DNA of 64,000 nucleotides from Dehalococcoidia bacterium (GTDB lineage: Bacteria > Chloroflexota > Dehalococcoidia > Lucifugimonadales > Australimonadaceae), in contig OZ251500.1 of assembly GCA_965242755.1 (NCBI GenBank), positions 2,625,339-2,689,338 of the forward strand, in the 5' to 3' direction. The translations under genes and the position numbers were made by a program. The notes beneath the pieces were generated by a model that saw nothing but the letters and a program-made list of their open reading frames with translations, had not been told where the DNA came from and did no database searches. Within the stretch, counting starts at the first letter, position 1. Each line of letters begins with the position of its first letter. Below, piece after piece: positions 17,689 to 54,101 of the stretch.

Positions 17689-18918
17689 ATGGTTAGCGTC
17701 AAAACCTGCGGGCTCATTGCGGCGCTTTTCCTGCTAGCGGCATGCATCAACACGCCGTCGCCAGCCAATTCGCCCACCAGCGAACCCACGCCTACCCTTT
17801 TGCCTTCCGGTGACTTCCTGCCCACCATTTCGCCTATGCATGAACTTCCTTCATCCTTCAGCGAAGCGACCACGCTTAGCGCCGGCGAATTCCATACCTG
17901 CGCGCTCCGTCCGGGCGGATATCCTGTGTGTTGGGGCTGGGATCTGTACGGGCAATCTTCGCCTGCAGCGCCTCATAAGGCGCAGAGCGTTGCGGCAATT
18001 ACTGCAGGAGGAGCGCATACGTGCATGGTTTTTTCAGATGATTCATTTTTCTGCAACGGCCCTTATTATTATGCTTACGCTTCGCGCCCCGGAAGGTTTG
18101 GGCATTATCGTCAATGGCCCGGAGACCCGCAACCGTTGGAAATCAGCACGCCGCCTAGCAGTCAACGGTTTTTCACGGTGAGCAGCGGCCGCAACCATGC
18201 GTGCGGCATCCCGCTTCCCCCTGGTTCGGATCCATCGGATCCGAAGGTAATCTGTTGGGGCGGGAATTCGCATGGCGAAGCGGCTCCGTACTTCTATATG
18301 GAAGGAATAAAAGCGGTAAGCAGCGGCGGGGATTTCACTTGCGCGCTGCGTTTCTCCGACAGCAAGCCGGTGTGTTGGGGTGAGGCGTACTGGGCGTATA
18401 GCCGAATAGTTGACGGCCATTTTGATCGTTCCTCTGAGCCGCTTCGCTGTCCGCCGAGGAACATCAGGGTTATCAGCCCTTTGTGCGATGAAGCCTTGGA
18501 ACTGACGGGGCCTGGCAGCCCGGAGTATCCTCCCGATGACGAGCATTTCGGGGCTATCAGCAGCGGCGGGTCTCATGTCTGCGCGCTGCGTCTCAAAACC
18601 GATGCTCCGGTCTGTTGGGGATCTAACGCGTGGGGTCAAGCGTCGCCGCCTGAGGACGAGCGATTCGCGGCCATCAGCAGCGGCAGCTTTCATACCTGCG
18701 CGCTGCGATTCGACGGGACTACGGTGTGTTGGGGCGACGACCGCTACGGCCAGGCGTCGCCGCCTGAGGGCGAGCGGTTCGCTGTCATCGACGCCGGTGG
18801 GGGGCATACTTGCGCGCTGCGGTTCGACGGGACTCCTGTTTGCTGGGGGATAGACGGTCACGGCCAAGCGTCGCCGCCTGAGGGCGAGCGTTTCGCGTTG
18901 TCCTTAGGGAGGAGCTGA
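17689..18918 (+). CDS. RCC1-repeat (regulator of chromosome condensation-like beta-propeller) lipoprotein
   Basis: Lipobox LLAAC. At least six repeats of GGxHxCAL(R)...PVCWG(x)xxxGQ(A)SPP. Confidence 0.85.
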   Translation: MVSVKTCGLIAALFLLAACINTPSPANSPTSEPTPTLLPSGDFLPTISPMHELPSSFSEATTLSAGEFHTCALRPGGYPVCWGWDLYGQSSPAAPHKAQSVAAITAGGAHTCMVFSDDSFFCNGPYYYAYASRPGRFGHYRQWPGDPQPLEISTPPSSQRFFTVSSGRNHACGIPLPPGSDPSDPKVICWGGNSHGEAAPYFYMEGIKAVSSGGDFTCALRFSDSKPVCWGEAYWAYSRIVDGHFDRSSEPLRCPPRNIRVISPLCDEALELTGPGSPEYPPDDEHFGAISSGGSHVCALRLKTDAPVCWGSNAWGQASPPEDERFAAISSGSFHTCALRFDGTTVCWGDDRYGQASPPEGERFAVIDAGGGHTCALRFDGTPVCWGIDGHGQASPPEGERFALSLGRS

Positions 18919-20726
18919 TGGTTCACATCATGCGAATGTATGCGTTGGCGGGCTGCATCGCGCTGCTGGGAGCGCTGGCTTGCGGCGGCGGGGAGCAGGC
19001 GCCGCAAGCGTCGGACTTGCCTTGCGCGAGCGAGGATGCGTCCTGCGCTCCGCGGGACGTGAGCGGTGTGGATGTCATTGGCGGGGGCGCATCGCATGGG
19101 GCGGCGTTTGGCCTGCCTCCGGACGCGCCTAGCGTGGAAGGCGTGCTGGAGAAGGGGCCCCGCGAGTCCGGCCAAGCCCCTGTGCATATCGCAATCCGAG
19201 GCATAGCTCAATCCGAGTCTGTCCGATGCGACTGGCACAGCGTCGTCCGGACCTTGGATTACCGCGAGAATGAAATACGCTTCTGGTTGGCCATTGACGA
19301 GGACGAGGCGTTGCCGGCTCCAAGCGAAGTGGAACGACGGCTAATGTCGCATGTGAACGGAATGCGCGCCGACCACCGGCCTGAGTGGACGGCTTGGGCC
19401 TCCGCGCTCGCCAATGGAGGCGTTTCTTCCGAGTACAACAGGCTGAAATGCTATGCTGACTACGCCGTTCAAGGCTATGTTCTCGGCAACGGACCGCGCG
19501 CGCTTACGGTGGCTTATGACAGACACGAGCGAGGCCCCTCCTACGGTCTGTACAGTCGCGCGCATGCGGCCGGGGCTTACCGCGGGGCGGCCAAACTCGG
19601 CGAAGCGGAGCATGCGACTGCGCTGGCGGAGATGGCTTATGAAGCCGCAGCGGAATTGAAGCAGGAGATTGGGTCTCGTCAGAGCGTCGTGTTTCTCACG
19701 CCAATGGGCGCGTTCGGCCCTGTCGCAGTCGAAGCATGGCAAGCAGTTGAGCAGTGGGATTTGCAACGAGCCGATGACGGGACGGTCAATGCCGTTCGCT
19801 ATGGCGCTCGAGAGGGGGATAGTGAGCAAACGCAAACGCTTGTCAACCTGCAAAGGCGCGTTACAACGGCGGCGGGAAGCGACGCTTTCGCGGGGAAGCG
19901 CATCGCCAACGCGAGCGGACTCGCGCAGTACTACCGAGACATCGGCGCCTACGGCGACATCACGCCCGGCGACGGCGAAACGGCGACGTTCACGCCGGCG
20001 CAGCCGCCTCCGAAGTGCGGCTCCGCGGTGGCGGATCACGCGGCGAATCCGGGCCTTGTTCAGGACTGCATGGCGCTGCTCGCGGCGAAGGACGAGTTGC
20101 GCGGAACGGGGGCGCTCAACTGGAGCGAAAGCCGCGCCATCGCCGATTGGGACGGCGTGAAAACGACGGGAACGCCCGCGCGAGTGACGCAGTTGCGAAT
20201 CGTGGACGGACGCCTAACCGGAACGCTCCCGGCGTCGTTGGGCAAACTGCCCGCGCTGACGCGGCTGTTTCTGAACGGGGGCGAGTTGACAGGCGCGATC
20301 CCGCCGGAGTTGGGCGACCTCGCGGCGCTGGAGCAGTTGCGCCTGAACGACAACAAGTTGACGGGGAGCATCCCGGCGGAGTTGGGCGGCCTAGCGAATC
20401 TGCGCGAGTTGTGGATTTCGGACAACGACCTCACCGGGTCAATCCCGTCGGAATTAGGGAGCCTGAGCAAGTTGGAGGTCTTAAGTCTGCTGAACAACGG
20501 CCTCACGGGCTCGATCCCGGCGGAGTTGGGAAGCCTCGGCAAGTTGACGCAATTGAGCCTAAGCAACAACGCGCTCAAGGGAAGCATCCCTGCGGAGTTG
20601 ACGAACTTGCGGAGCCTAGCCTGGCTGCGCTTAGGCGGCAACGCCCTAACAGGCTGCATCCCATCGCCTCTGCGAAGCGTCGCCGACCAAGACATCCACC
20701 GCCTCCGCAACCTCGCGGAGTGCTAG
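18918..20726 (+). CDS. Lipoprotein with unknown N-terminal domain and C-terminal plant-type leucine-rich repeats
   Basis: Signal/lipobox LLGALACGG. The C-terminal ~200 aa has an LRRNT-like cap (DCMALLAAKDEL..ALNWSE...W.GV) plus eight 24-residue repeats LxxLxLxxNxLTGSIPAELGxLxx. Start overlaps the RCC1 stop (TGATG). Confidence 0.85.
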   Translation: MVHIMRMYALAGCIALLGALACGGGEQAPQASDLPCASEDASCAPRDVSGVDVIGGGASHGAAFGLPPDAPSVEGVLEKGPRESGQAPVHIAIRGIAQSESVRCDWHSVVRTLDYRENEIRFWLAIDEDEALPAPSEVERRLMSHVNGMRADHRPEWTAWASALANGGVSSEYNRLKCYADYAVQGYVLGNGPRALTVAYDRHERGPSYGLYSRAHAAGAYRGAAKLGEAEHATALAEMAYEAAAELKQEIGSRQSVVFLTPMGAFGPVAVEAWQAVEQWDLQRADDGTVNAVRYGAREGDSEQTQTLVNLQRRVTTAAGSDAFAGKRIANASGLAQYYRDIGAYGDITPGDGETATFTPAQPPPKCGSAVADHAANPGLVQDCMALLAAKDELRGTGALNWSESRAIADWDGVKTTGTPARVTQLRIVDGRLTGTLPASLGKLPALTRLFLNGGELTGAIPPELGDLAALEQLRLNDNKLTGSIPAELGGLANLRELWISDNDLTGSIPSELGSLSKLEVLSLLNNGLTGSIPAELGSLGKLTQLSLSNNALKGSIPAELTNLRSLAWLRLGGNALTGCIPSPLRSVADQDIHRLRNLAEC

Positions 20727-20874
20727 GGGCGACCGCGCGGGGGCAACCCTCACCCGCCGCTGCGCGGCTGCCCTCTCCCAGAAGGAGAGGGCGGGATTGG
20801 CGCGGCGCCGCCGCATGGATGCCCGCCTACGCGGGTCGGGCGGCGGGTTATGCAAAGGTCTCCTTAGGGAGGAG

Positions 20875-21929: not shown

Positions 21930-22835
21930 CTAGAGCGTTCCGGCGGCGCGGGCGGCCTCGACGTCGGGCGGGTGCCCCCACGTCTCGAATCCGCCGAGCC
22001 CGTTTTGCTCGTTCCACTCCATGCAACTGATCCAGCGCCCGGTGACGCCGCTCGCATCCTGCTGCGCGAGATGGAGCGCGAGAGGGACGACGTTGTCGGC
22101 GCGGACGCGGCGCGGCGTCCAGTTGGCGGGCTCCTGGCCGAGCCGCATTCGGATCTCGTGGCGGACGGCTTCCTGCTCGTCGGAGCCGGTCGTGGCGGTG
22201 TGGCCGGGCATCATCAGGTTCGCGGCGATGTTGTAGGACTTGAGTTCCTGCGCGAGGTAGATCGTCATCGAGCCCATCGCGGCTTTCGCGGGCTGGTACG
22301 CGCCCTCCCGGCTGAGGCCGTAGAAGACGGGCTCGCCCTGTCCGGCGGCGTGCGCGTTGAGCAACATACTCGACGAGGAGTTGATGATGCTGCCGGCGCG
22401 CTTCTCGATCATCGGCTGAACGAACCGCTTGATGACGCGGAGGTTGCCGAACACGTGCGTGCTGAACATCCGCTCCCACTCGCTGACGTCGGTTTCGAGC
22501 ACGGTGACGCTGCCGTGCGCGTCGAGGTAGAGGTCGCGCTGGCGCGTTCCGCCGTTGTTGATGACGACGTCCACCGTTCCGAACCGCGCCATCGTCTTCT
22601 CGTAGACGGCGTCCACGTGCGACTGCAGGGTAACGTCCATCGTCGCGGCGAGCGCGTTGGGGTTGTCCTTGATTTCGGCGAGGAAGTCGTAGTCGTCGTT
22701 GGAGACGCCGGTGGGCGCCCACGAGAGGTCGGTCGCGACGACTTTGGCGCCTGCGTTGAGGAAGGCGCGGACCATCTCGCGGCCCATACCCCGCGCGCCG
22801 CCGGTGATCAGCGCGACTTTGCCTGCCACGGACAT
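21930..22835 (-). CDS. Short-chain dehydrogenase/reductase (SDR) family oxidoreductase
   Basis: TGGARGMG Rossmann motif and NNGG. A catalytic YxxxK-like region (YQPAKAAM). ATG at 22835 with GGGAGG SD. Paralogous to 27696-28610. Confidence 0.9.
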   Translation of the reverse strand: MSVAGKVALITGGARGMGREMVRAFLNAGAKVVATDLSWAPTGVSNDDYDFLAEIKDNPNALAATMDVTLQSHVDAVYEKTMARFGTVDVVINNGGTRQRDLYLDAHGSVTVLETDVSEWERMFSTHVFGNLRVIKRFVQPMIEKRAGSIINSSSSMLLNAHAAGQGEPVFYGLSREGAYQPAKAAMGSMTIYLAQELKSYNIAANLMMPGHTATTGSDEQEAVRHEIRMRLGQEPANWTPRRVRADNVVPLALHLAQQDASGVTGRWISCMEWNEQNGLGGFETWGHPPDVEAARAAGTL

Positions 22836-23059
22836 CGCATTGCCTCCCTGGGTCTCTGTCAGCCGCAATCCTACGCGAATCGCGCGCCGTGCTCAAGGTG
22901 TGGAATGACATGGGCGGCAAACCCTCACCCGCTGCTTCGCGGCGCCCTCTCACGCCATCGAGAGAAGGCGGGATTGGCTCTATCGCGCCTACTGGGTTCC
23001 TGCCTACGCGGGAACCTGCTTGGCTGCGGCGCGCTATAATGCCACCGCAGAGGTGAACT

Positions 23060-23452
23060 ATGGCGAAAGCGCAAGGCTCCGCGACGATGGACGCGTCAAG
23101 CAAGGCGACGCTTGACGTGAGCATGGAGCATCCCGCGCTCACGCCGCTGACGCGGCGGCTCGCCGGCGAGTTGTGGGAAATCGTCCGCGCGAAGGCGGAA
23201 GCGGAAGGGCTGCTGATAGAGGAGGCGTGGCTGCGAGGCTACACGGATGTCGAAGGCGTGGACGAGGCGTATATCGCCGTGCTGTGCGCCGCGCCCTTCG
23301 AGCGCACGCTCGCCTTCCACAGGAGCCTCAGCGACGACCGCAGGCGTTGGTTCGATAGCATGGACGCGGAAAGCCGGGAGGCGGCGATGGATCTCAGGTT
23401 GAGCATCAACCCGGACCAGACGCTGTTCCCGATCTCCCCTGACGACCTGTAG
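23060..23452 (+). CDS. Hypothetical acidic protein, upstream partner of HEPN gene (possible antitoxin-like component)
   Basis: 130-aa ORF ending 6 nt before the HEPN start (operon-like). No clear MNT nucleotidyltransferase motif. The start could also be an internal Met. Confidence 0.5.
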   Translation: MAKAQGSATMDASSKATLDVSMEHPALTPLTRRLAGELWEIVRAKAEAEGLLIEEAWLRGYTDVEGVDEAYIAVLCAAPFERTLAFHRSLSDDRRRWFDSMDAESREAAMDLRLSINPDQTLFPISPDDL

Positions 23453-23458
23453 CCGCCG

Positions 23459-23866
23459 ATGCCGCTCGACCCGGAACGTTTCCTTGTCCAAGCGCGGCGT
23501 CTGGCGCGGACGGCGGAGAACGAGGCGGATCACCGCTCCGCGATCAACCGCGCCTACTACGCCTGCCATCTCGTCGCCCGAGATGCGCTGTTCGGCGTTG
23601 ACGCTGGAGGCGGCAGAAGGCCGTCGCACACAGCGGTCATCAAGTCCATCGCAACGCATCCGGGAGGAGCGGAAGATGCGGACGGCTTGCGGGAATTGAA
23701 GGCGATGCGCGAGGTCGCGGACTACGTCACGGATTCGTCGCATCCCGACGTTCAGCGCGTGTTCGCCGATGGCCGTGTCTCCGATTGGGCGGGCCTCGCC
23801 GCGCGCGCGTTGGCCACCGCGGGCGCGCTCGTTCCGCGTTTGCGGGCGCTGCCGCCTGGTGGATAG
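23459..23866 (+). CDS. HEPN domain protein
   Basis: HRSAINRAYYACHLVARDAL...SHTAVIKS...LKAMREVADY follows the classical HEPN helix pattern (S.AYYA..H.A...L....H......L......R..ADY). Confidence 0.7.
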   Translation: MPLDPERFLVQARRLARTAENEADHRSAINRAYYACHLVARDALFGVDAGGGRRPSHTAVIKSIATHPGGAEDADGLRELKAMREVADYVTDSSHPDVQRVFADGRVSDWAGLAARALATAGALVPRLRALPPGG

Positions 23867-23957
23867 ATGGCGGTTCCACGTTCCATGAGCGTTGGCCGAG
23901 TGCAGCGCAGCAATATGGTATGCTCAACATAGGATTCACTCACAGGAGCGGACGAGA

Positions 23958-24770
23958 ATGCGAATCTACCTCGCCAATGTCGGCGCGAATGTCTCCCTGT
24001 TCAACAAGCGCGGGCTTGCCAGCCCCGTCTTTGAGGACGGGCGTTTCGAGTTCCTGCCCATTCCTGCTGATAACCCGCGGCTGGACGAGTCGCCGAATGC
24101 GATTCACTACTCCGACCTGCGCTCCCACTACGACCCTGCCCAAGCCTTGACTTCCTACATACCTGACCACCTCTGGGGCAAGGCTGTCCACAACTCCCCC
24201 GAGTTCGAGAAATTCACCTATTGCGACGCTTGCGACGACTTCCCTCGCGCCGCGAACCTCAAGGAGGTTCAGCAGGGGGATGTCTTGCTGTTCGTGGCCG
24301 GTCTGAGGCTTTGGATCGACGGCAAGAGGACGAGCGAGTACGACTTGCACCTGATCGGGGGCTTTCGTATAGAGGAGGCGTTGCGCTGCGAGGGCGCGCC
24401 ACCGGATGAGAGAGTGGAGGACAGGTTCGCAGGAAACGCCTACGTGATCAACGGGCAGGAGACTGGGCGCTGGGATCCCGTAGTCGGCAACTGGCTATTC
24501 GCGGGCTCCCAAGACGGGTCGCGCCGCTTCAACAAGGCCGTCCCGCTCAATAGGGAAATCTGCGAGCAGGCGTTCGCGGCCGCTAACGGCGCCCCGTGGC
24601 GATGGGGCCGACAATCGGAGACCGCGACGGTCGCATCGTACACCCGCACCGCGCGCCGCTTCCTAGACACGAGCAACCCCGAAGAGGCGAAGCGCGCCGC
24701 CGTCCTGCGCGATTGGGTGGCGCGGCATACAGGAGAGGCGGATGCGGCGTTGCTTGGCGACGGAGCGTAG
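23958..24770 (+). CDS. Hypothetical protein, possibly Nmad3-like (nucleotide-modification-associated domain 3)
   Basis: ATG at 23958 with AGGAG SD. The N-terminus MRIYLANVGAN...GLASPVFEDGRFEFLPIP and the later GDVLLFVAGL...HLIGGFRIEE resemble my recollection of Nmad3-type proteins. This is not verified by search. Confidence 0.35.
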   Translation: MRIYLANVGANVSLFNKRGLASPVFEDGRFEFLPIPADNPRLDESPNAIHYSDLRSHYDPAQALTSYIPDHLWGKAVHNSPEFEKFTYCDACDDFPRAANLKEVQQGDVLLFVAGLRLWIDGKRTSEYDLHLIGGFRIEEALRCEGAPPDERVEDRFAGNAYVINGQETGRWDPVVGNWLFAGSQDGSRRFNKAVPLNREICEQAFAAANGAPWRWGRQSETATVASYTRTARRFLDTSNPEEAKRAAVLRDWVARHTGEADAALLGDGA

Positions 24771-24779
24771 TCGACGCGG

Positions 24780-25151
24780 CTAGGCCAACTTCTTCTTGAG
24801 GTTATCCCAAGTCCAAACGATCATCTCGCCGGCGCCTTTCATCGGCTGCCACTTCTTCCCCTGAGGCATGAGCTGAAACCGGCGCTTGTTCATGCCCGCG
24901 GCGATCGCTATCTCCTTGAGGACGCCGGGGGCGTTATGCGTGTTCTCTCCCAATATCACGACGAACACTTCGCAGCCCTCGATGGCCTTCCGCGCCTTGG
25001 TCAGCCACTCTTGCTCCGGCTTCCTCTCTTGGAGGGAAACATCGGTCACCGAAAATGGCGAATCTTGCCGTTTCGCTTGCGCGATCAAGTCTTCCTTGAG
25101 GTCGAGGTCGGTTCCGTAGTCGAAACTGACGAACACTTTCGTCTTGGCCAT
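24780..25151 (-). CDS. TIR-like domain protein (DUF1863 / MTH538 / ThsB-like)
   Basis: KVFVSFDYGTDLDL...I..CEVFVVILGENTHNAPGVLKEIAIA matches the DUF1863 TIR-like pattern, including the conserved Glu context. Locally reduced GC. Convergent with 23958-24770 (9-bp gap). Confidence 0.7.
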   Translation of the reverse strand: MAKTKVFVSFDYGTDLDLKEDLIAQAKRQDSPFSVTDVSLQERKPEQEWLTKARKAIEGCEVFVVILGENTHNAPGVLKEIAIAAGMNKRRFQLMPQGKKWQPMKGAGEMIVWTWDNLKKKLA

Positions 25152-25215
25152 CGCCTACCTTCCTCTTGCTATGGGGAGCAAGTACCAGGCGCAAGTCAGC
25201 GGAGACGCCGGCGCG

Positions 25216-27057
25216 CTACACCGCGCACTCGCCCTCTCCGCGCTCCACCTTGTAGAGGATCGTCTTCCCCCAGTCTATGTAGGAGTCGAGGTTCTCCTTG
25301 TTGAGCGCGCCCACCTCGCGGTACTTGGCGGCGATCTCCTCGAACGGCGCCGTGCCGGAGCGGTCGACGAAGTCGTTGAACGTCTCGCCGTCCGTCCGGC
25401 TGGCCTGGTAGTGGGAGAGGACGTCGTCGAGGAAGGCGGGGACGCGCTTGGCGGGCACCTTGCTCTTGACGCGGTGGCCGAACCGCGCCGCGTCCTGGTT
25501 GCCGTAGTTGCCGGCGAGGAACACCTCGTAGGCGGGCGCCTGGTTGCCGTCGCCCTTCATCGCCGCGCCGTGAAAGCCGATGTTGGCGATGTGATGGCGC
25601 GAGCATCCGTTGGGGCAGCCGCTGACCTTGACGTGCAGATTCTTGACGAGCGGGTCGTCCGCGCCGTAGTCGCGGATGCTCTTCCGCAGCGCCTCCGCGA
25701 CGCCCATCGAGGAGGTGATGCCCATCTTGCAGCTGTCCGTGCCGGGGCAGGAGACGACGTCGGTGATGGAGTTGGCGCCGTCCTCGGCGAGGCCGATGGC
25801 CTTGAGCGCCGTCCAAACGTCGTGCAGGCGGCCCTCCGGAACCCAGCGGTAAAGCAGGTTCTGCTCCGTCGTGGCGCGGACGCCGCCCGCGAACTTCCGC
25901 GCGATCTCCGCGAGCGCGGGGAACTGATGCGCGTAGATGTCGCCGAGCGGCAGCGTGACGTAGACAATGCAGTAGCCGTCCTGCCGCTGCGGGCGGACGT
26001 TGGACTCGCGCCACGCGAGGAACTCCGGCTCGTCGAGGGAGGGGTCGGCGGGGACGGGCGCCGGCGGCTGATCGATCATCTCCGGGGGCAACTCCATCCA
26101 GGGGGAGGGATCGAAGTCGGCGCTCGCCCAATCGCCCTCCATCTCCCTCTCGACCTCGGCGCGGAAGGCGTCGATGCCGACGCGGTCGACGTAGAACTTG
26201 ATGCGGGCGCGCATTCGGTTTTTGCGGAGTTCGTCCGTCCGGTGGAACACGCGAATGGCGGCCTCCGCGACCTTCAGGTACTCCGCGACGGGGACGAATT
26301 CGTAGAGCGTCCAGGCGAGGCGCGGCATTATGGACGTGCCGCCGCCGATGCGGATCTCGAAGCCCTTCTCCGGCGGGCTGCCGTCTTCGAGGTCGCGCAG
26401 TTTGGGAATGAACGCAAGGTCGTGGATGTCGGCCACGACCTCGTCGTCGCCGCCGCTGGAGAAGGACGTCTTCCATTTGCGGGGGAGCGCCTGCGTGTAC
26501 TCGTGGCGGAGGAAGTATCGGGCGTAGGCGGCGAGGTAAGGCGCGACGTAGAAGGGCTCCTCCGGCTTCACGCCGGAGAGGGGGTCGCCCGCGACGTTCC
26601 GCACCGTGTTGCCGCACGCCTCGCGGGTGACGAGCCCGGCTTCGCCGAGGATCCGCATCACGTCGGGCGTGTCGGCGAGCGGAACGAAGTGGATCTGCAT
26701 GTTCTCGCGCGTCGTGACGTGCCCCTTCTTGAGGGGGGCGTGCTTGGCGACGACCTCGCCGAAGGCGTCGAGGTGGTCGGCGGTGAGGGCGCCGCCGGGG
26801 ATCTTGATCCGCATCATCTGGACGTCGGGCTGGCGCTGGCCGTACACGCCTCGGACGAGGCGGTACATAATGAACTGCTCTTCGCTGGGCCACTCGCCGT
26901 TGAGGAAGCGGGTGGCTTCCGTCTCGAAGTCGTCGGCTTCCTCCGGGAGGTAGGGGAGGACGCTTTTGGCGTAGTCGTAGGTTTTCTTTTCCGCCGGGGA
27001 TTTGACGCCCCTAATGATGGGGCCTGCGGGCGCGGTGACGGGCGCGGTGGTGGTCAT
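25216..27057 (-). CDS. sir: Ferredoxin-dependent sulfite (or nitrite) reductase hemoprotein, siroheme/[4Fe-4S]
   Basis: SCPGTDSCKMGIT and VSGCPNGCSRHHIANIGF cluster/siroheme-binding motifs. Duplicated NIR_SIR architecture. ATG at 27057 with AGGAG SD. Confidence 0.9.
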   Translation of the reverse strand: MTTTAPVTAPAGPIIRGVKSPAEKKTYDYAKSVLPYLPEEADDFETEATRFLNGEWPSEEQFIMYRLVRGVYGQRQPDVQMMRIKIPGGALTADHLDAFGEVVAKHAPLKKGHVTTRENMQIHFVPLADTPDVMRILGEAGLVTREACGNTVRNVAGDPLSGVKPEEPFYVAPYLAAYARYFLRHEYTQALPRKWKTSFSSGGDDEVVADIHDLAFIPKLRDLEDGSPPEKGFEIRIGGGTSIMPRLAWTLYEFVPVAEYLKVAEAAIRVFHRTDELRKNRMRARIKFYVDRVGIDAFRAEVEREMEGDWASADFDPSPWMELPPEMIDQPPAPVPADPSLDEPEFLAWRESNVRPQRQDGYCIVYVTLPLGDIYAHQFPALAEIARKFAGGVRATTEQNLLYRWVPEGRLHDVWTALKAIGLAEDGANSITDVVSCPGTDSCKMGITSSMGVAEALRKSIRDYGADDPLVKNLHVKVSGCPNGCSRHHIANIGFHGAAMKGDGNQAPAYEVFLAGNYGNQDAARFGHRVKSKVPAKRVPAFLDDVLSHYQASRTDGETFNDFVDRSGTAPFEEIAAKYREVGALNKENLDSYIDWGKTILYKVERGEGECAV

Positions 27058-27119
27058 AGGCTGCTCCTGCGCGGACTCTTGGGATAAGGATACCACAGGC
27101 TGCGGGGGCGGGCGCGCGG

Positions 27120-27300
27120 GTTGCGCCCTGCGCCCCGCCCTGACCGCGAAAGCGGAAGCCTACCGAACGCGAAGCGCCAATACCAGCCTCTCCTTCTGGA
27201 GACCTTGCTTCTGGAGACCTTTGCATAACCTACCGTCATTCCCGCGTAGGCGGGAATCCAGTCGGCGCGACCGCGCCGACTGGAGGCTGCTGCAACGAAG
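27120..27300. repeat. REP-like modules plus solo IS5-type inverted-repeat copy (GGAGACCTTTGCATAAC at 27213)
   Basis: Has the hairpin CATTCCCGCGTAGGCGGGAATCCAGTCGGCGCG and a duplicated CTGGAGACCTT. It lies between leader copy 2 and the sir start. Confidence 0.8.
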
Positions 27301-27695: not shown

Positions 27696-28610
27696 CTACC
27701 GGGCGCGCGCCGCGGCGGCGAGTTCGGCGTTCTCCGAGACCGCCGTCCCCTCCGGGTCTTCCCACGCGAGTTGCCCGCCGAGCCCGTGCTCAATGTTCCA
27801 CGTTGGAACGTCGAAGCACTTGCCCGTCACCTCGCTCGCAGCGTCCTGCTTGGCGAGGAAGAGCGCGAGCGGAACCATGTGGTCGGCGCGGAGCGGAAGG
27901 GGCGCGTTGGGGTTGCCCATCCCCAACTCTCGCCGCGCAATGTTCTGCTCGTCGAACCCCGTCGTCCGCGTATGGCCGGGAACCATCACGTTGACCGCGA
28001 CGTTGTCGATCCGGACTTCGTCGGCGAGGTAGAACATCATCGCGAGGAGGGCGGCTTTCGTTGACTGATAGGGCATTTCGCGGCTGTTGGGGCGGAGCGC
28101 GGCGTAGGCGCCCCCATGCGAGTGATGCAGCGCGCCGCTGCTGATGACGGAGACGACGCTGCCGGAGCGCTGCTCGATCATCGGGCGGATAAAGCGGCGC
28201 GTCGCCTTGAGCGCGCCGAACACGTTGACCGCGAACGCGCGCTCCCAGTCTTCGTCGCTCGTCTCCAGCGTCGTCGTCCGCCCTGTCGGAGGGAAGAGGA
28301 TGCGCTGGCGCATCGCCGCGTCGTTGATGAGGACGTCGCAGGTTCCCCACTTTCGCATCGTCGCGGCGTAGGCGGCGTCCAACTCCGCGTCGCTCGTCAC
28401 GTCGGCGGTTGCGACGATGACGTCGTCGGGGCGCGCCCGCAGTTCGTCGAGGAAGGCGGAGTCCGCGTCGCCGGAGAAGCCGGTCGGCTCCCATGAGAGG
28501 TCCATCGCCGTGACCTTCGCGCCCTCCGCGAGGAACGCCTGCGTGAACGCGCGCCCCATGCCGCGGGCCGCCCCGGTGATCGCCGCAACCTTGCCGGACA
28601 GTTCCGCCAT
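27696..28610 (-). CDS. Short-chain dehydrogenase/reductase (SDR) family oxidoreductase (paralog of 21930-22835)
   Basis: TGAARGMG and INDAA. YQSTKAAL catalytic Tyr/Lys. Same unusual C-terminal extension as its paralog. ATG at 28610 with GGAGG SD. Confidence 0.9.
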   Translation of the reverse strand: MAELSGKVAAITGAARGMGRAFTQAFLAEGAKVTAMDLSWEPTGFSGDADSAFLDELRARPDDVIVATADVTSDAELDAAYAATMRKWGTCDVLINDAAMRQRILFPPTGRTTTLETSDEDWERAFAVNVFGALKATRRFIRPMIEQRSGSVVSVISSGALHHSHGGAYAALRPNSREMPYQSTKAALLAMMFYLADEVRIDNVAVNVMVPGHTRTTGFDEQNIARRELGMGNPNAPLPLRADHMVPLALFLAKQDAASEVTGKCFDVPTWNIEHGLGGQLAWEDPEGTAVSENAELAAAARAR

Positions 28611-28723
28611 CGTTCGCCTCCGCGCTCCGGCTCCGCGCCGGATGATGCCCCAATCATACGCCGACCGCAGGCGGGGCGCGCGGCGTTGACGCGCGCCCCT
28701 TTGCGCCTGTATCCTTTCGCGCA

Positions 28724-29506
28724 ATGAACTCCGACTCCTCCCCCAACGTTTGCGAGCATGTTCCCAGTCTGCCGGACGAACGGATCGAGTTCGTCTTTGA
28801 CGCGCGCGCGGGGCTCTTGGACGAGCCTGCTCCCGGCGGGGACGCCCTCATCGCGACCAACCTCCGGCTCGTCCGCGTCGGGGCCGGGCACGGGTCGCGC
28901 GTCTTGACGATGCTTCCGCTGAGCAACATCTCCGCCGTGGAGGCTGTGGACACGGGGCGCGCGTTGGACAAACTCGGGCAGGGGATACTGCTGCTCGCCG
29001 TCGGCCTCGCGCTCGGCGGCGGGAGTTGGGTCGTCTTGGGGGTGCAGGCGCTCTCCGTGCTGCTCGGCGGTTTGCCGATGCTCGCGGGCGTCTACGCGCT
29101 CGCGGGGTGGGCGTTCCCCGACACGGAAGGCCAGTTGCGGATCCATACGTTCGGCCAGGTTTTCGCGCAGCCGTTGCGCTCATCCGCCGCGCGGCGCGAC
29201 GCGCCCGAGGCGGCGGCGCGGCTGTATTCGCTCGCATGGAGCGAGACGCTCGCGGGCGCAAGCAAACTCGTTGAAATCGTGACCGCCGCCGCCCAAGATG
29301 TCGGCCCCGCGCCAACGGACGGCGCCCCCGCGTCAACGGACGGCGAGCCCGCGCCAACGGACGGCGAACCTGCGCCAACTGCCGGCCCCGCGTCAGCGGA
29401 CGGCGCCGGAGGCGGAAGCGCGCCGGAGTCCGATGCCTTGCGCCCCGTCTCAGAGTCCGCCGAGCGCGGCGGCTCGCTCTGGGGCTGGTTTCGCAAAGCC
29501 GACTAA
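28724..29506 (+). CDS. Hypothetical membrane protein with C-terminal 7-residue tandem repeats
   Basis: Two or three central TM helices. The C-terminus has PAPTDGA/PASTDGE/PAPTDGE/PAPTAG/PASADGA encoded by ~21-bp tandem repeats (~29305-29410). No family recognised. Confidence 0.6.
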   Translation: MNSDSSPNVCEHVPSLPDERIEFVFDARAGLLDEPAPGGDALIATNLRLVRVGAGHGSRVLTMLPLSNISAVEAVDTGRALDKLGQGILLLAVGLALGGGSWVVLGVQALSVLLGGLPMLAGVYALAGWAFPDTEGQLRIHTFGQVFAQPLRSSAARRDAPEAAARLYSLAWSETLAGASKLVEIVTAAAQDVGPAPTDGAPASTDGEPAPTDGEPAPTAGPASADGAGGGSAPESDALRPVSESAERGGSLWGWFRKAD

Positions 29507-37665: not shown

Positions 37666-37872
37666 GGCGTATGGCGGCGTTGTCATTCCGCGTAGGCGGC
37701 ACCTAGCCCACCGGGGGCGCTCCATCCTTCGTAATCGTCGCCCGCCTACTGACCGTCATTCCCGCGTAGGCGGGAATCCAGGAACCCGCGTAGGCCGCTG
37801 CGGGCGCTCGACCTTCCAGCGCCTCATCATCGCCCGCGTAGTCAGGCTCCTCTTCCGCGAAGAGGAGCGGCG

Positions 37873-53846: not shown

Positions 53847-54101
53847 ATGCCGAAGGCGGCGATCCTGATAGACGGAGGGTACTTCCTCAAACGACTGCCC
53901 TCGGTTCGCCGCGACGTGGACGCTTCGAACGCGTCGAGCGTAGTGCAGGCAATCCGGCAACTCGTCCGCAGCCACCTGCGTCAACTGAACGAGACATACC
54001 GGGCCCCCAACCCGATGAGCCTGCTCTACCGCTGCTTCTACTACGACGCGATCCCGTACGCGCCTGATCCGGTTCCTGGATTCCCGCCTACGCGGGAATG
54101 A
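53847..54101 (+). pseudogene. NYN-domain (LabA/DUF88-like) protein, 3'-truncated by a REP module
   Basis: MPKAAILIDGGYFLKRL...LYRCFYYDAIPY matches the N-terminal third of NYN proteins. The ORF then runs into GGATTCCCGCCTACGCGGGAATGA (54075-54100) and stops. Confidence 0.5.

What the first reader, a model, noticed from the sequence alone, without database searches (positions are those of the whole stretch)
23060..25151. Compact islet: HEPN two-gene cassette + possible Nmad3-like protein + TIR-like (DUF1863/ThsB-like) protein
Four small genes sit between an SDR operon and sulfite reductase.
- A 130-aa acidic protein is tightly coupled (6-nt gap) to a 135-aa HEPN protein. This is toxin-antitoxin-like, but the partner lacks the usual MNT nucleotidyltransferase motif.
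- A 270-aa protein follows, whose N-terminus (…SPVFEDGRFEFLPIP…) and GD-hhhF-beta-barrel signature remind me of Nmad3-type proteins.
- Convergent with it is a 123-aa stand-alone TIR-like protein with reduced GC.

Thoeris-type defence needs a TIR (ThsB) plus an effector (ThsA with SIR2, Macro or SLOG), and no canonical ThsA is present. If the TIR-like protein signals, its effector would have to be one of these uncharacterised neighbours (the HEPN RNase or the 270-aa protein). That would be a non-canonical pairing.
Basis: partly seen in the sequence, partly recalled or inferred. Interest (0 to 1): 0.65.

Follow-up and report, generated by a model that had tools for sequence, protein, structure and literature searches.

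The report
Variable islet: HEPN pair, Nmad3, mini-TIR
Four small accessory genes sit in a strain-variable slot of a Dehalococcoidia-type genome; they are best read as three separable conflict-type modules rather than one Thoeris-like system, although the Nmad3 gene and a 123-residue mini-TIR gene do travel together as a tight convergent pair that nobody has described.

Summary
The four ORFs are at the stated coordinates and the domain calls are borne out: Nmad3 (Pfam 67 bits, cut-off 27), ThsB-type TIR (27 bits, cut-off 21.2; catalytic Glu aligned), and a UPF0332-type HEPN (family profile against solved HEPN structures, 4e-7). The 130-aa partner is acidic, is not a nucleotidyltransferase and matches no known fold.

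- No ThsA-like effector is present.
- The mini-TIR's usual neighbours elsewhere are the PADLOC candidate PDC-M50 membrane protein, a longer ThsB-like TIR, or a SLOG-like protein. All are absent here.
- Close relatives show the slot between the SDR and sulfite-reductase genes is a cargo hotspot. Flanks are 94-95% identical while the cargo is swapped or diverged.
- Two overlapping blocks move between contexts: [130-HEPN-Nmad3] and [Nmad3 > < mini-TIR], the latter with 7-11 bp between stop codons in four contexts.
- Each gene also occurs without the others, and TIR and HEPN are never linked except through Nmad3.

I read it as a mosaic of small conflict modules with Nmad3 as the hub. A real Nmad3 plus mini-TIR two-gene unit remains a live and novel possibility.

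The parts
23060..23452 (+). 130-aa acidic protein (pI 4.6). Lineage-restricted, multi-copy family of unknown fold. Putative antidote or partner of the HEPN protein.
   Evidence: ORF. No hit in Pfam, NCBIfam or PADLOC. 103 relatives, all at least 47% identical, with several copies per genome: 3 on the window's own contig and 3 within the 8-kb locus L001. AF2 pLDDT 83; no significant Foldseek match and no nucleotidyltransferase. dN/dS 0.20-0.45.
23459..23866 (+). 135-aa HEPN protein of the UPF0332/PF05168 type, 6 nt downstream of the 130-aa gene. Putative toxin of a TA-like pair.
   Evidence: Pfam HEPN 13 bits (below cut-off) and PADLOC HEPN_IX 3.2e-6. The family profile hits solved HEPN proteins 9xbd (4.3e-7), Retron-Kva2 HEPN (1.6e-4) and AF0298 (4.9e-4). 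3 of 46 relatives hit Pfam HEPN, best 1.7e-6. Family-invariant residues are R26, Y33, Y34, H57, R84, D88 and Y89. The only R-x4-6-H in the sequence is R31-H37, in the N-terminal part.
23958..24770 (+). 270-aa stand-alone Nmad3 protein, an 'accessory' paralogue. It is the hub of both mobile blocks.
   Evidence: PF18754 at 67.3 bits against a cut-off of 27. 84 relatives and 324 in species-representative genomes, almost all Dehalococcoidia/SAR202. AF2 pLDDT 93.4, pTM 0.91. No significant structural match; the weak top hits are consistently PUA-like (McrB-N/EVE 6p0g E 0.05, plus ASCH, YTH and DUF3850). No Nmad2 in the window.
24780..25151 (-). 123-aa mini-TIR (ThsB/DUF1863-like) that keeps the catalytic-position Glu80. 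Solo here, without a membrane, SLOG or second-TIR partner.
   Evidence: ThsB_TIR 27.0 bits against 21.2. PADLOC ThsB 3.8e-4 and PDC-M50B 1.2e-3. PDB profile hits 8wcf, 8fz9, 6lhy and 9b7d, with E80 on the TIR Glu. 688 relatives. GC 0.567. dN/dS 0.15-0.50.
24771..24779 (.). 9-bp spacer between the convergent stop codons of Nmad3 and the mini-TIR. It has no room for a terminator, so the transcripts must overlap or read into each other.
   Evidence: Sequence. No terminator-like site in 22700-25400. The same tight spacing (7-11 bp) is seen in L001, L082, L085 and L167.
22962..23014 (.). REP-like palindromic repeat copy at the left edge of the cargo. It may be a recombination substrate, but this is not shown.
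   Evidence: Repeat families D2 and I3. The core TTCCCGCGTAGGCGGGAAT has 23 matches in the window against 0.05 expected. Copies also occur in related loci.

Best explanation
The stretch is the cargo of a strain-variable slot between an SDR gene and the sulfite-reductase gene of a Dehalococcoidia-type (Chloroflexota) chromosome. It holds three separable small modules, not one four-gene system.

(1) A toxin-antitoxin-like pair. This is a UPF0332-type HEPN protein preceded, 6 nt upstream, by an acidic 130-aa protein. That protein belongs to a lineage-restricted, multi-copy family and is not the usual MNT nucleotidyltransferase. Inferred: the 130-aa protein holds the HEPN protein in check by binding it.

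(2) A stand-alone accessory paralogue of Nmad3. Its confident model has a barrel resembling PUA-like domains (ASCH, EVE, YTH). Inferred: it binds a modified base or nucleotide.

(3) A 123-aa mini-TIR that keeps the catalytic glutamate. Inferred: it is an NAD+ or nucleotide N-glycosidase. Elsewhere its family sits beside the PDC-M50A membrane protein, a PDC-M50B ThsB-like TIR or a SLOG-like protein. None of these is present here, so the window copy is a solo TIR, tucked 64 bp behind the reductase gene on the same strand.

Shown: Nmad3 is the hub of two overlapping blocks that move between genomic contexts. One is [130-HEPN-Nmad3]. The other is [Nmad3 > < mini-TIR], sometimes with the membrane protein. 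The cargo is exchanged by recombination among near-identical genomes.

Inferred: the modules belong to the lineage's conflict/defence mobilome. In this window they act independently, or at most as an Nmad3/mini-TIR pair.
For: Hotspot.
- Flanks are 93.8-95.3% identical to L083 and L166, while the cargo differs.
- L083 keeps 130-HEPN-Nmad3 at only 80.7% identity and has a 520-aa multi-TM protein in place of the TIR.
- L166 keeps the TIR plus a 37-bp remnant of the Nmad3 3' end. In place of the rest it carries 63-, 228- and 739-aa genes, the last weakly PD-Lambda-4_A-like (1.3e-6).
- dS of the cargo genes against L083 is 0.38-0.54, compared with 0.16 for the reductase. dN/dS is 0.15-0.5 for cargo against 0.03-0.05 for the reductase. 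GC3 is lower than in the flanks.

Separability.
- Nmad3 occurs alone in L171, L172 and L173.
- Nmad3 occurs with 130/HEPN but no TIR in L083 and L168.
- Nmad3 occurs with the TIR but no HEPN in L082, L167 and L085, which have HigBA, an SDR or NYN upstream.
- The TIR occurs alone in L166 and in L177-L179. L178 is a 3.7-Mb contig on which no protein from the 84-protein Nmad3 list is recorded.
- In L001 the HEPN gene has been lost between a 130-aa copy and Nmad3.

Usual partners.
- Within 1.5 kb of the gene in 80 mini-TIR metagenome loci: 35 have PDC-M50A, 29 have a PDC-M50B-like TIR, 8 have a SLOG-like protein, 30 have none, and 0 have Nmad3.
- L001 and L085 carry PDC-M50A (about 1e-29) beside the TIR. 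The window does not.
- 14 of 80 Nmad3 loci have Nmad2 downstream or fused. The window has none.

Domain evidence.
Against: - The convergent Nmad3/mini-TIR pair recurs with 7-11 bp spacing in four unrelated contexts and twice on one chromosome (L082 and L085). That is more than independent hitch-hikers would be expected to give.
- The 130/HEPN pair also precedes Nmad3 in two contexts.
- So 'independent modules' may understate real functional coupling around Nmad3.
- No activity of any of the four proteins is known.
- The HEPN protein lacks a canonical C-terminal Rx4-6H, so it may not be an RNase toxin.
- Many Nmad3 relatives lie in housekeeping neighbourhoods, so a conflict role for Nmad3 itself is inferred from its context in this clade only.
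Confidence: 0.5

Rival explanations
1. Nmad3 and the mini-TIR form a genuine two-gene conflict system, ancestrally three-gene with the PDC-M50A membrane protein. The TIR makes or cleaves an NAD-derived or other nucleotide. The PUA-like Nmad3 acts as its sensor, receptor or regulator. It would take the place that a SLOG-like protein or a second TIR takes in related cassettes.
For: - A 1.25-kb block (window 23912-25171) containing just these two genes is shared at 72-87% nucleotide identity with L001, L082, L167 and L085, in four different flanking contexts.
- The stop codons are always 7-11 bp apart.
- Two diverged copies of the pair lie on one 2.5-Mb contig.
- L166 retains a 37-bp Nmad3 remnant next to its TIR, so the pair was ancestral there.
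- Of 7 distinct mini-TIR contexts in this lineage, 5 have Nmad3 and 1 has its remnant.
- In a distant haloarchaeal plasmid, an Nmad3 gene is convergent with an operon encoding QueC and a PfkB kinase fused to a nucleoside 2-deoxyribosyltransferase domain. From general knowledge, that domain belongs to the same fold group as TIR. The mini-TIR itself gives sub-threshold hits to Nuc_deoxyrib_tr models.
Against: - The linkage is confined to one clade. 0 of 80 mini-TIR loci elsewhere carry Nmad3, and 0 of 80 more distant Nmad3 loci carry a TIR, even with a profile search.
- Half of the close Nmad3 loci lack the TIR (L083, L168, L171-L173).
- A 75%-identical TIR lives in a genome with no listed Nmad3 relative.
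- The convergent orientation rules out co-transcription.
- The haloarchaeal parallel is a single case. Two other haloarchaeal Nmad3 loci have no such neighbour.
Confidence: 0.28
2. Nmad3 plus the TIR-like protein is a nucleotide-modification or salvage pair rather than an immune module. The TIR-fold protein would act as an N-glycosidase or base-exchange enzyme on a modified nucleotide. Nmad3 would bind or process the modified base, as its family name implies.
For: - Nmad3 relatives sit with Nmad2 (14 of 80 loci, plus fusions) and, in Halorientalis, with QueC and a PfkB-Ndt fusion.
- Many Nmad3 genes lie among housekeeping genes.
- The model resembles modified-base readers.
- Solo mini-TIR genes sit just behind housekeeping genes on the same strand: sulfite reductase, cysS and an aminotransferase.
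Against: - The window clade of Nmad3 is mobile, fast-evolving and flanked by TA genes (HEPN pair, HigBA, BrnTA) and a NYN gene.
- The mini-TIR family elsewhere sits with a membrane protein, a ThsB-like TIR and SLOG-like proteins, which are typical conflict-system parts.
- No modification enzyme (Nmad2, QueC, kinase or glycosyltransferase) is in the window.
Confidence: 0.1
3. All four genes form one Thoeris-like system. The mini-TIR senses infection and makes a signal that releases or activates the HEPN RNase (held by the 130-aa protein), with Nmad3 as the receptor.
For: The four genes are adjacent in the window with no canonical ThsA. 130/HEPN and the TIR each co-occur with Nmad3 in other loci.
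Against: - The full four-gene order is seen only in the window.
- In L001 the HEPN gene is 2 kb away behind two ABC genes. L082, L167 and L085 lack it. L083 and L168 lack the TIR.
- The 130-aa/HEPN family is multi-copy and far more numerous than close Nmad3 relatives (103 against about 26 clusters).
- The HEPN protein lacks the canonical catalytic motif.
Confidence: 0.05

Closest known systems
Thoeris (ThsB TIR plus ThsA effector)
   Same: A small stand-alone ThsB/DUF1863-type TIR protein with the catalytic-position glutamate conserved.
   Different: No ThsA of any type (SIR2-SLOG or TM-Macro) lies nearby. The TIR is about 40-70 residues shorter than the solved ThsB proteins it matches (193-194 aa). 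Signal production is untested.
PADLOC phage-defence candidate PDC-M50 (A: small multi-TM protein; B: ThsB-like TIR). It is untested, predicted by 'guilt by embedding' (bioRxiv 10.1101/2024.01.29.577857).
   Same: The mini-TIR family is a frequent immediate neighbour of PDC-M50A (35 of 80 loci) and of PDC-M50B-like TIRs (29 of 80). In the window's own clade, L001 and L085 carry PDC-M50A next to it.
   Different: The window has neither A nor B. The mini-TIR is not PDC-M50B itself: it scores 1.2e-3 where the true B scores 9.5e-39. It is a third, unmodelled component.
HEPN-MNT (type VII) toxin-antitoxin pairs
   Same: A two-gene cassette with a 6-nt gap. It has a UPF0332-type HEPN protein downstream of a small acidic partner, is multi-copy in the genome, and an orphaned partner copy remains after HEPN loss (L001).
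   Different: The partner is not a nucleotidyltransferase by sequence or predicted fold. The HEPN protein lacks a C-terminal Rx4-6H; its invariant residues are R84-x3-D88-Y89 and H57. Toxicity is untested.
Nmad3 (Pfam PF18754), normally paired or fused with Nmad2
   Same: Full-length match above the curated threshold, and the family's invariant polar residues are kept.
   Different: No Nmad2 here. The window protein belongs to a fast-evolving, mobile sub-clade found beside TA genes and the mini-TIR, not to the sub-clade embedded among housekeeping genes.
PUA-like modified-base readers (EVE, ASCH, YTH, McrB-N)
   Same: The only recurrent structural neighbours of the confident Nmad3 model in both PDB and viral libraries.
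   Different: No match is significant (best E 0.05, TM 0.29-0.42). Nmad3 is about twice the size, with extra elements. This is resemblance, not membership.

Membership tests
Thoeris | ThsB: a TIR-domain protein with a catalytic glutamate | tested here: met
   PF08937 at 27.0 bits against a cut-off of 21.2. The family profile aligns E80 with the Glu of solved TIR/ThsB chains. E80 is invariant in 21 relatives.
Thoeris | An adjacent ThsA effector (SIR2-SLOG, or TM-Macro in type II) | tested here: not met
   No SIR2, SLOG or Macro hit in the four islet proteins or the eight flanking ORFs tested.
Thoeris | The TIR produces a cADPR-isomer or His-ADPR signal on infection | not testable with these tools
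   This needs biochemistry.
PDC-M50 (PADLOC candidate) | A PDC-M50A small multi-TM protein next to the TIR | tested here: not met
   No homologue anywhere in the window. It is present in relatives L001 and L085 at about 1e-29.
PDC-M50 (PADLOC candidate) | A PDC-M50B ThsB-like TIR of about 160 aa | tested here: not met
   The window TIR scores only 1.2e-3. The true B protein of related cassettes scores 9.5e-39 and is a different, longer TIR.
HEPN-MNT type VII TA | A HEPN-fold toxin | tested here: met
   The family profile hits solved HEPN proteins at 4.3e-7, 1.6e-4 and 4.9e-4.
HEPN-MNT type VII TA | An Rx4-6H catalytic motif in the HEPN protein | tested here: not met
   The only R-x4-6-H in the sequence is R31-H37, in the N-terminal part. 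The invariant residues are R84, D88, Y89 and H57.
HEPN-MNT type VII TA | An MNT nucleotidyltransferase antitoxin | tested here: not met
   No NTase hit by Pfam, NCBIfam or PADLOC. The AF2 model has no NTase neighbour.
Nmad3 (PF18754) | A profile match above the curated threshold over the full domain | tested here: met
   67.3 bits against 27, covering residues 2-235 of 270 and profile positions 1-226 of 247.
Nmad3-Nmad2 module | Nmad2 (PF18753) fused or adjacent | tested here: not met
   A phmmer search with an Nmad2 domain finds nothing in the window at E up to 10. It is found in 14 of 80 related loci and in fusions P0055, P0073 and L010.
PUA-like fold (EVE/ASCH/YTH) | Significant structural similarity of the barrel core | tested here: inconclusive
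   The top hits are PUA-like in both libraries, but E is 0.05-1 and TM at most 0.42.

The most novel reading that the evidence does not exclude
A previously undescribed TIR-based module: a 123-aa mini-TIR paired convergently with an accessory Nmad3 protein whose barrel resembles PUA-like domains, ancestrally with a PDC-M50A-type membrane effector. Nmad3 would be the receptor or regulator for the TIR product. That would make Nmad3 a new sensor class in TIR immunity and give the Nmad3 family its first functional assignment. The 130/HEPN cassette would be a frequent add-on.
Probability: 0.25. Interest if true: 0.7.

Novelty: new variant of a known kind. Interest (0 to 1): 0.45.

Why it matters
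None of the four families has an assigned function. The library of papers searched holds no paper that discusses the Nmad3 protein family. PDC-M50 is an untested candidate.

The comparative picture yields three concrete, testable units:
- A 1.25-kb Nmad3/mini-TIR block that moves as one piece.
- A HEPN cassette with a non-MNT partner of new fold.
- A mini-TIR that is an unrecognised third gene of PDC-M50-type cassettes.

If Nmad3 proves to be coupled to the TIR, it would link the 'nucleotide-modification associated' domains to TIR immunity. It would also extend TIR systems into Dehalococcoidia/SAR202, a lineage with almost no experimentally studied defence biology. If not, the locus is still a clean example of a small recombination hotspot that swaps conflict genes between near-identical genomes.

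Tried and rejected
- **A Thoeris effector nearby.** Rejected: no SIR2, SLOG or Macro domain in the islet or flanks.
- **The mini-TIR is PDC-M50B.** Rejected after scanning the real B protein (9.5e-39 against 1.2e-3).
- **The 130-aa protein is a degenerate MNT nucleotidyltransferase.** Rejected on sequence and predicted fold.
- **A hidden Nmad2 or PDC-M50A in the window.** Not found.
- **A TIR remnant downstream of Nmad3 in L168.** tblastn found none.
- **Phage origin.** Nmad3 has no tblastn hit in 50,697 phage records and none in IMG/VR. The mini-TIR has only 3 IMG/VR hits. There are only distant PHROG families of unknown function.
- **RNA genes, tRNA integration sites, promoters and terminators in or around the islet.** None found.
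- **Literature on Nmad3 and PDC-M50.** Nothing relevant. The DefensePredictor paper (PMC13092281) validates a system containing Nmad2, not Nmad3. The original Nmad paper could not be retrieved.
- **Haloarchaeal Nmad3 loci as independent support for a TIR/Ndt link.** One of three has an Ndt-domain neighbour. The other two do not.
- **Structure search of Nmad3.** The model is confident but has no significant neighbour.
Full report
**1. What is there**

Between an adh_short SDR gene (21930-22868, -) and a NIR_SIR sulfite/nitrite reductase gene (25216-27096, -) lie four small genes:
- a 130-aa gene (23060-23452, +);
- a 135-aa gene 6 nt downstream of it (23459-23866, +);
- a 270-aa gene (23958-24770, +);
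- a convergent 123-aa gene (24780-25151, -), with only 9 bp between the two stop codons.

The ATG at 23958 is the real start of the 270-aa gene, because all homologues begin MRIYLANVGAN. The 123-aa gene has a GC content of 0.567 against 0.674 for the window. All four genes have GC3 of 0.77-0.86, against 0.91-0.93 in the flanking genes. No RNA family, tRNA, sigma-70-like promoter or intrinsic terminator was detected in the region.

**2. Identities**

*The 270-aa protein is Nmad3.*
- It matches PF18754 at E 2.2e-18, 67.3 bits against a cut-off of 27.
- Its AF2 model is confident (pLDDT 93.4, pTM 0.91) but has no significant structural neighbour.
- The best weak hits in PDB and in the viral library are consistently PUA-like modules: McrB-N bound to m5C DNA (E 0.05), then ASCH, YTH, EVE and DUF3850.
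- I treat that as a lead, not a classification.

*The 123-aa protein is a ThsB/DUF1863-type TIR.*
- It scores 27.0 bits against a cut-off of 21.2.
- A profile of its family aligns to solved TIR and ThsB chains and places the invariant E80 on their catalytic-position Glu.

*The 135-aa protein is a HEPN protein of the UPF0332 type.*
- This is weak for the single sequence but clear for a 46-member family profile: 9xbd at 4.3e-7, Retron-Kva2 HEPN at 1.6e-4 and AF0298 at 4.9e-4.
- It lacks a C-terminal Rx4-6H. The invariant residues are R26, Y33, Y34, H57, R84, D88 and Y89.

*The 130-aa protein is acidic (pI 4.6) and of unknown type.*
- It has no family hit.
- Its model (pLDDT 83) is a small alpha/beta domain with no significant neighbour and no resemblance to MNT nucleotidyltransferases.
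- Its family has 103 clusters, all at least 47% identical. It is multi-copy: three members on the window's own 3.16-Mb contig and three copies within 8 kb of L001.

**3. Lineage**

Nmad3 relatives in species-representative genomes number 324. Nearly all of the 80 best are from Dehalococcoidia, SAR202 or other Chloroflexota MAGs. The closest loci come from environmental assemblies whose flanking genes are 94-95% identical to the window. The window is therefore most likely from a high-GC Dehalococcoidia-type chromosome. This is an inference.

**4. The slot is a cargo hotspot**

Two near-identical relatives differ from the window only in the cargo.
- L083 shares the flanks at 93.8% and 95.0% identity. 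It shares 130-HEPN-Nmad3 at only 80.7%, and carries a 520-aa multi-TM protein exactly where the TIR gene is.
- L166 shares the flanks at 95.3% and 93.8%. It keeps the TIR gene and the last 37 bp of Nmad3. In place of 130-HEPN-Nmad3 it carries 63-, 228- and 739-aa genes, the last weakly similar to PD-Lambda-4_A (1.3e-6).

Synonymous divergence confirms allelic replacement. Against L083, dS is 0.38-0.54 for the three cargo genes and 0.16 for the reductase. dN/dS is 0.15-0.50 for cargo genes and 0.03-0.05 for the reductase. The genes are therefore functional but fast-evolving accessory genes. A REP-like palindrome (23 matches in the window against 0.05 expected) has a copy at the left edge of the cargo.

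**5. Which genes travel together**

Two overlapping blocks emerge.
- Block A is [130-HEPN-Nmad3], window 23050-24770. It recurs in L083, in the same slot, and in L168, in an unrelated context.
- Block B is [Nmad3 > < mini-TIR], window about 23912-25171. It recurs in four contexts: the window slot, L001, L082/L167 (behind cysS) and L085 (behind a PFOR operon). The stop-to-stop spacing is always 7-11 bp. L082 and L085 lie on one 2.5-Mb contig, so the pair has been duplicated or acquired twice as a unit.

Upstream of Nmad3 in block-B loci are unrelated small genes: HigB/HigA in L082, an SDR in L167, a NYN protein in L085, and a lone 130-aa copy in L001. In L001 the HEPN gene has been deleted relative to the window.

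Each gene also occurs without the others:
- Nmad3 alone in L171, L172 and L173.
- The mini-TIR alone in L166.
- The mini-TIR alone behind an aminotransferase gene in L177-L179. L178 is a 3.7-Mb contig on which no protein from the 84-protein Nmad3 list is recorded.

No locus links TIR and HEPN except through Nmad3.

**6. Usual partners outside the clade**

*Mini-TIR.* I examined 80 metagenome loci whose mini-TIR relatives are 44-58% identical to the window protein. Counts are for partners within 1.5 kb of the gene:

| Neighbour | Loci |
|---|---|
| Small multi-TM protein matching PADLOC PDC-M50A (1e-29 to 1e-30) | 35 |
| Longer ThsB-like TIR, the true PDC-M50B (9.5e-39) | 29 |
| SLOG-like protein | 8 |
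| None of these | 30 |
| Nmad3 | 0 |

The mini-TIR is thus an unmodelled third member of PDC-M50-type cassettes. PDCs are untested candidates predicted by embedding in known systems. Within the window's own clade, L001 and L085 have PDC-M50A immediately upstream of the TIR. The window has no homologue.

*Nmad3.* In the 80 more distant loci (at most 52% identical), no TIR is nearby, even with a profile search. Fourteen have Nmad2 immediately downstream or fused, and most sit in conserved housekeeping synteny. The window has no Nmad2.

One haloarchaeal plasmid has Nmad3 convergent with QueC and a PfkB-nucleoside-deoxyribosyltransferase fusion. This is an intriguing parallel, because Ndt and TIR share a fold group (general knowledge). 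Two other haloarchaeal loci show nothing similar.

**7. Interpretation**

The best-supported reading (confidence about 0.5) is a mosaic of three separable conflict-type modules in a recombination hotspot, with Nmad3 as the hub.
- The HEPN/130 pair behaves like a TA cassette. It has tight coupling, is multi-copy, and L001 retains an orphaned partner copy after HEPN loss. Its partner is of a new kind and its toxin motif is atypical.
- The mini-TIR here is solo. It lacks every partner its family has elsewhere, so a PDC-M50-like or Thoeris-like relay cannot operate as such in this window.

The main rival (about 0.28) is that Nmad3 and the mini-TIR are a real two-gene unit. The minimal 1.25-kb block, the fixed convergent spacing and its repeated relocation argue for this. 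Its restriction to one clade and the frequent occurrence of each gene alone argue against it.

**8. Novelty and score**

- All four families were recognisable. No new kind of system is demonstrated.
- Three things do not appear in the libraries and papers I could search: the Nmad3/mini-TIR block, the non-MNT HEPN partner, and the mini-TIR as a third gene of PDC-M50 cassettes.
- I rate this a new variant of a known kind, with interest 0.45.
- The novel reading, Nmad3 as the partner or receptor of a TIR enzyme, has a probability of about 0.25 and would deserve about 0.7 if true.

Noticed in passing
window 13780-57162 (e.g. 20819-20837, 22996-23014, 27238-27257, 37758-37777, 54080-54099): A REP-like palindrome, TTCCCGCGTAGGCGGGAAT, gives 23 matches (at most 3 mismatches) against 0.05 expected. 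Longer 40-65-nt versions flank the islet and the reductase gene, and copies occur in related loci. When translated it gives the recurrent spurious 'PAYAGMT' peptides.
   Followed up: partly
window 21930-22868 (-) and 27696-28724 (-): Two paralogous SDR genes, about 65% identical at the nucleotide level and in the same orientation, bracket the islet plus the sulfite-reductase gene. This is seen as direct repeats spaced about 5.78 kb apart.
   Followed up: no
L086-L165 (metagenome loci): The 123-aa mini-TIR family is a frequent third gene beside the PADLOC candidate PDC-M50. Of 80 loci, 35 have the A membrane protein, 29 have a B-like ThsB TIR and 8 have a SLOG-like protein, mostly on the same strand. 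PADLOC has no model for this mini-TIR.
   Followed up: partly
L001 3137-3529, 5572-5964, 7818-7919: Three copies of the 130-aa gene lie within 8 kb, each heading a different downstream gene set: HEPN plus two ABC genes, then Nmad3, then a copy truncated by the contig end. The 130-aa gene may therefore mark cassette starts rather than being only a HEPN partner.
   Followed up: partly
L166 5576-8881: This is alternative cargo in the same slot of a near-identical genome. It has three unknown genes of 63, 228 and 739 aa, the largest weakly similar to PD-Lambda-4_A (1.3e-6).
   Followed up: partly
L083 5810-7372 (-): A 520-aa multi-TM protein with no family hit occupies exactly the place of the mini-TIR in a genome whose flanks are 94-95% identical to the window. 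A tyrosine integrase follows the reductase gene there.
   Followed up: no
L170 (Halorientalis plasmid NZ_CP019068.1) 5182-9272: A 430-aa protein with an Nmad3 domain (123 bits) lies downstream of an AAA ATPase gene. It is convergent with a QueC-like gene and a PfkB kinase fused to a nucleoside 2-deoxyribosyltransferase domain.
   Followed up: partly
L167 7086-7616 (-): An EVE-domain protein (28 bits against a cut-off of 23) lies two genes upstream of the Nmad3/mini-TIR pair in one relative.
   Followed up: no
window 17689-20726 (+): An RCC1-repeat protein (409 aa) is followed directly by a 602-aa protein with plant-like leucine-rich repeats (LTGSIPxELG). This is an unusual pair for a Chloroflexota-type genome.
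   Followed up: no
L004, L005, L007, L009, L026, L029, L030, L032: In one Dehalococcoidia group, ORFs that by sequence inspection look like a nicotinamidase and a nicotinate phosphoribosyltransferase (NAD salvage) lie 1-2 kb upstream of the Nmad3-Nmad2 pair, with likely dapF and hflX genes nearby. None of these was run against a family library. This may be mere shared synteny.
   Followed up: no
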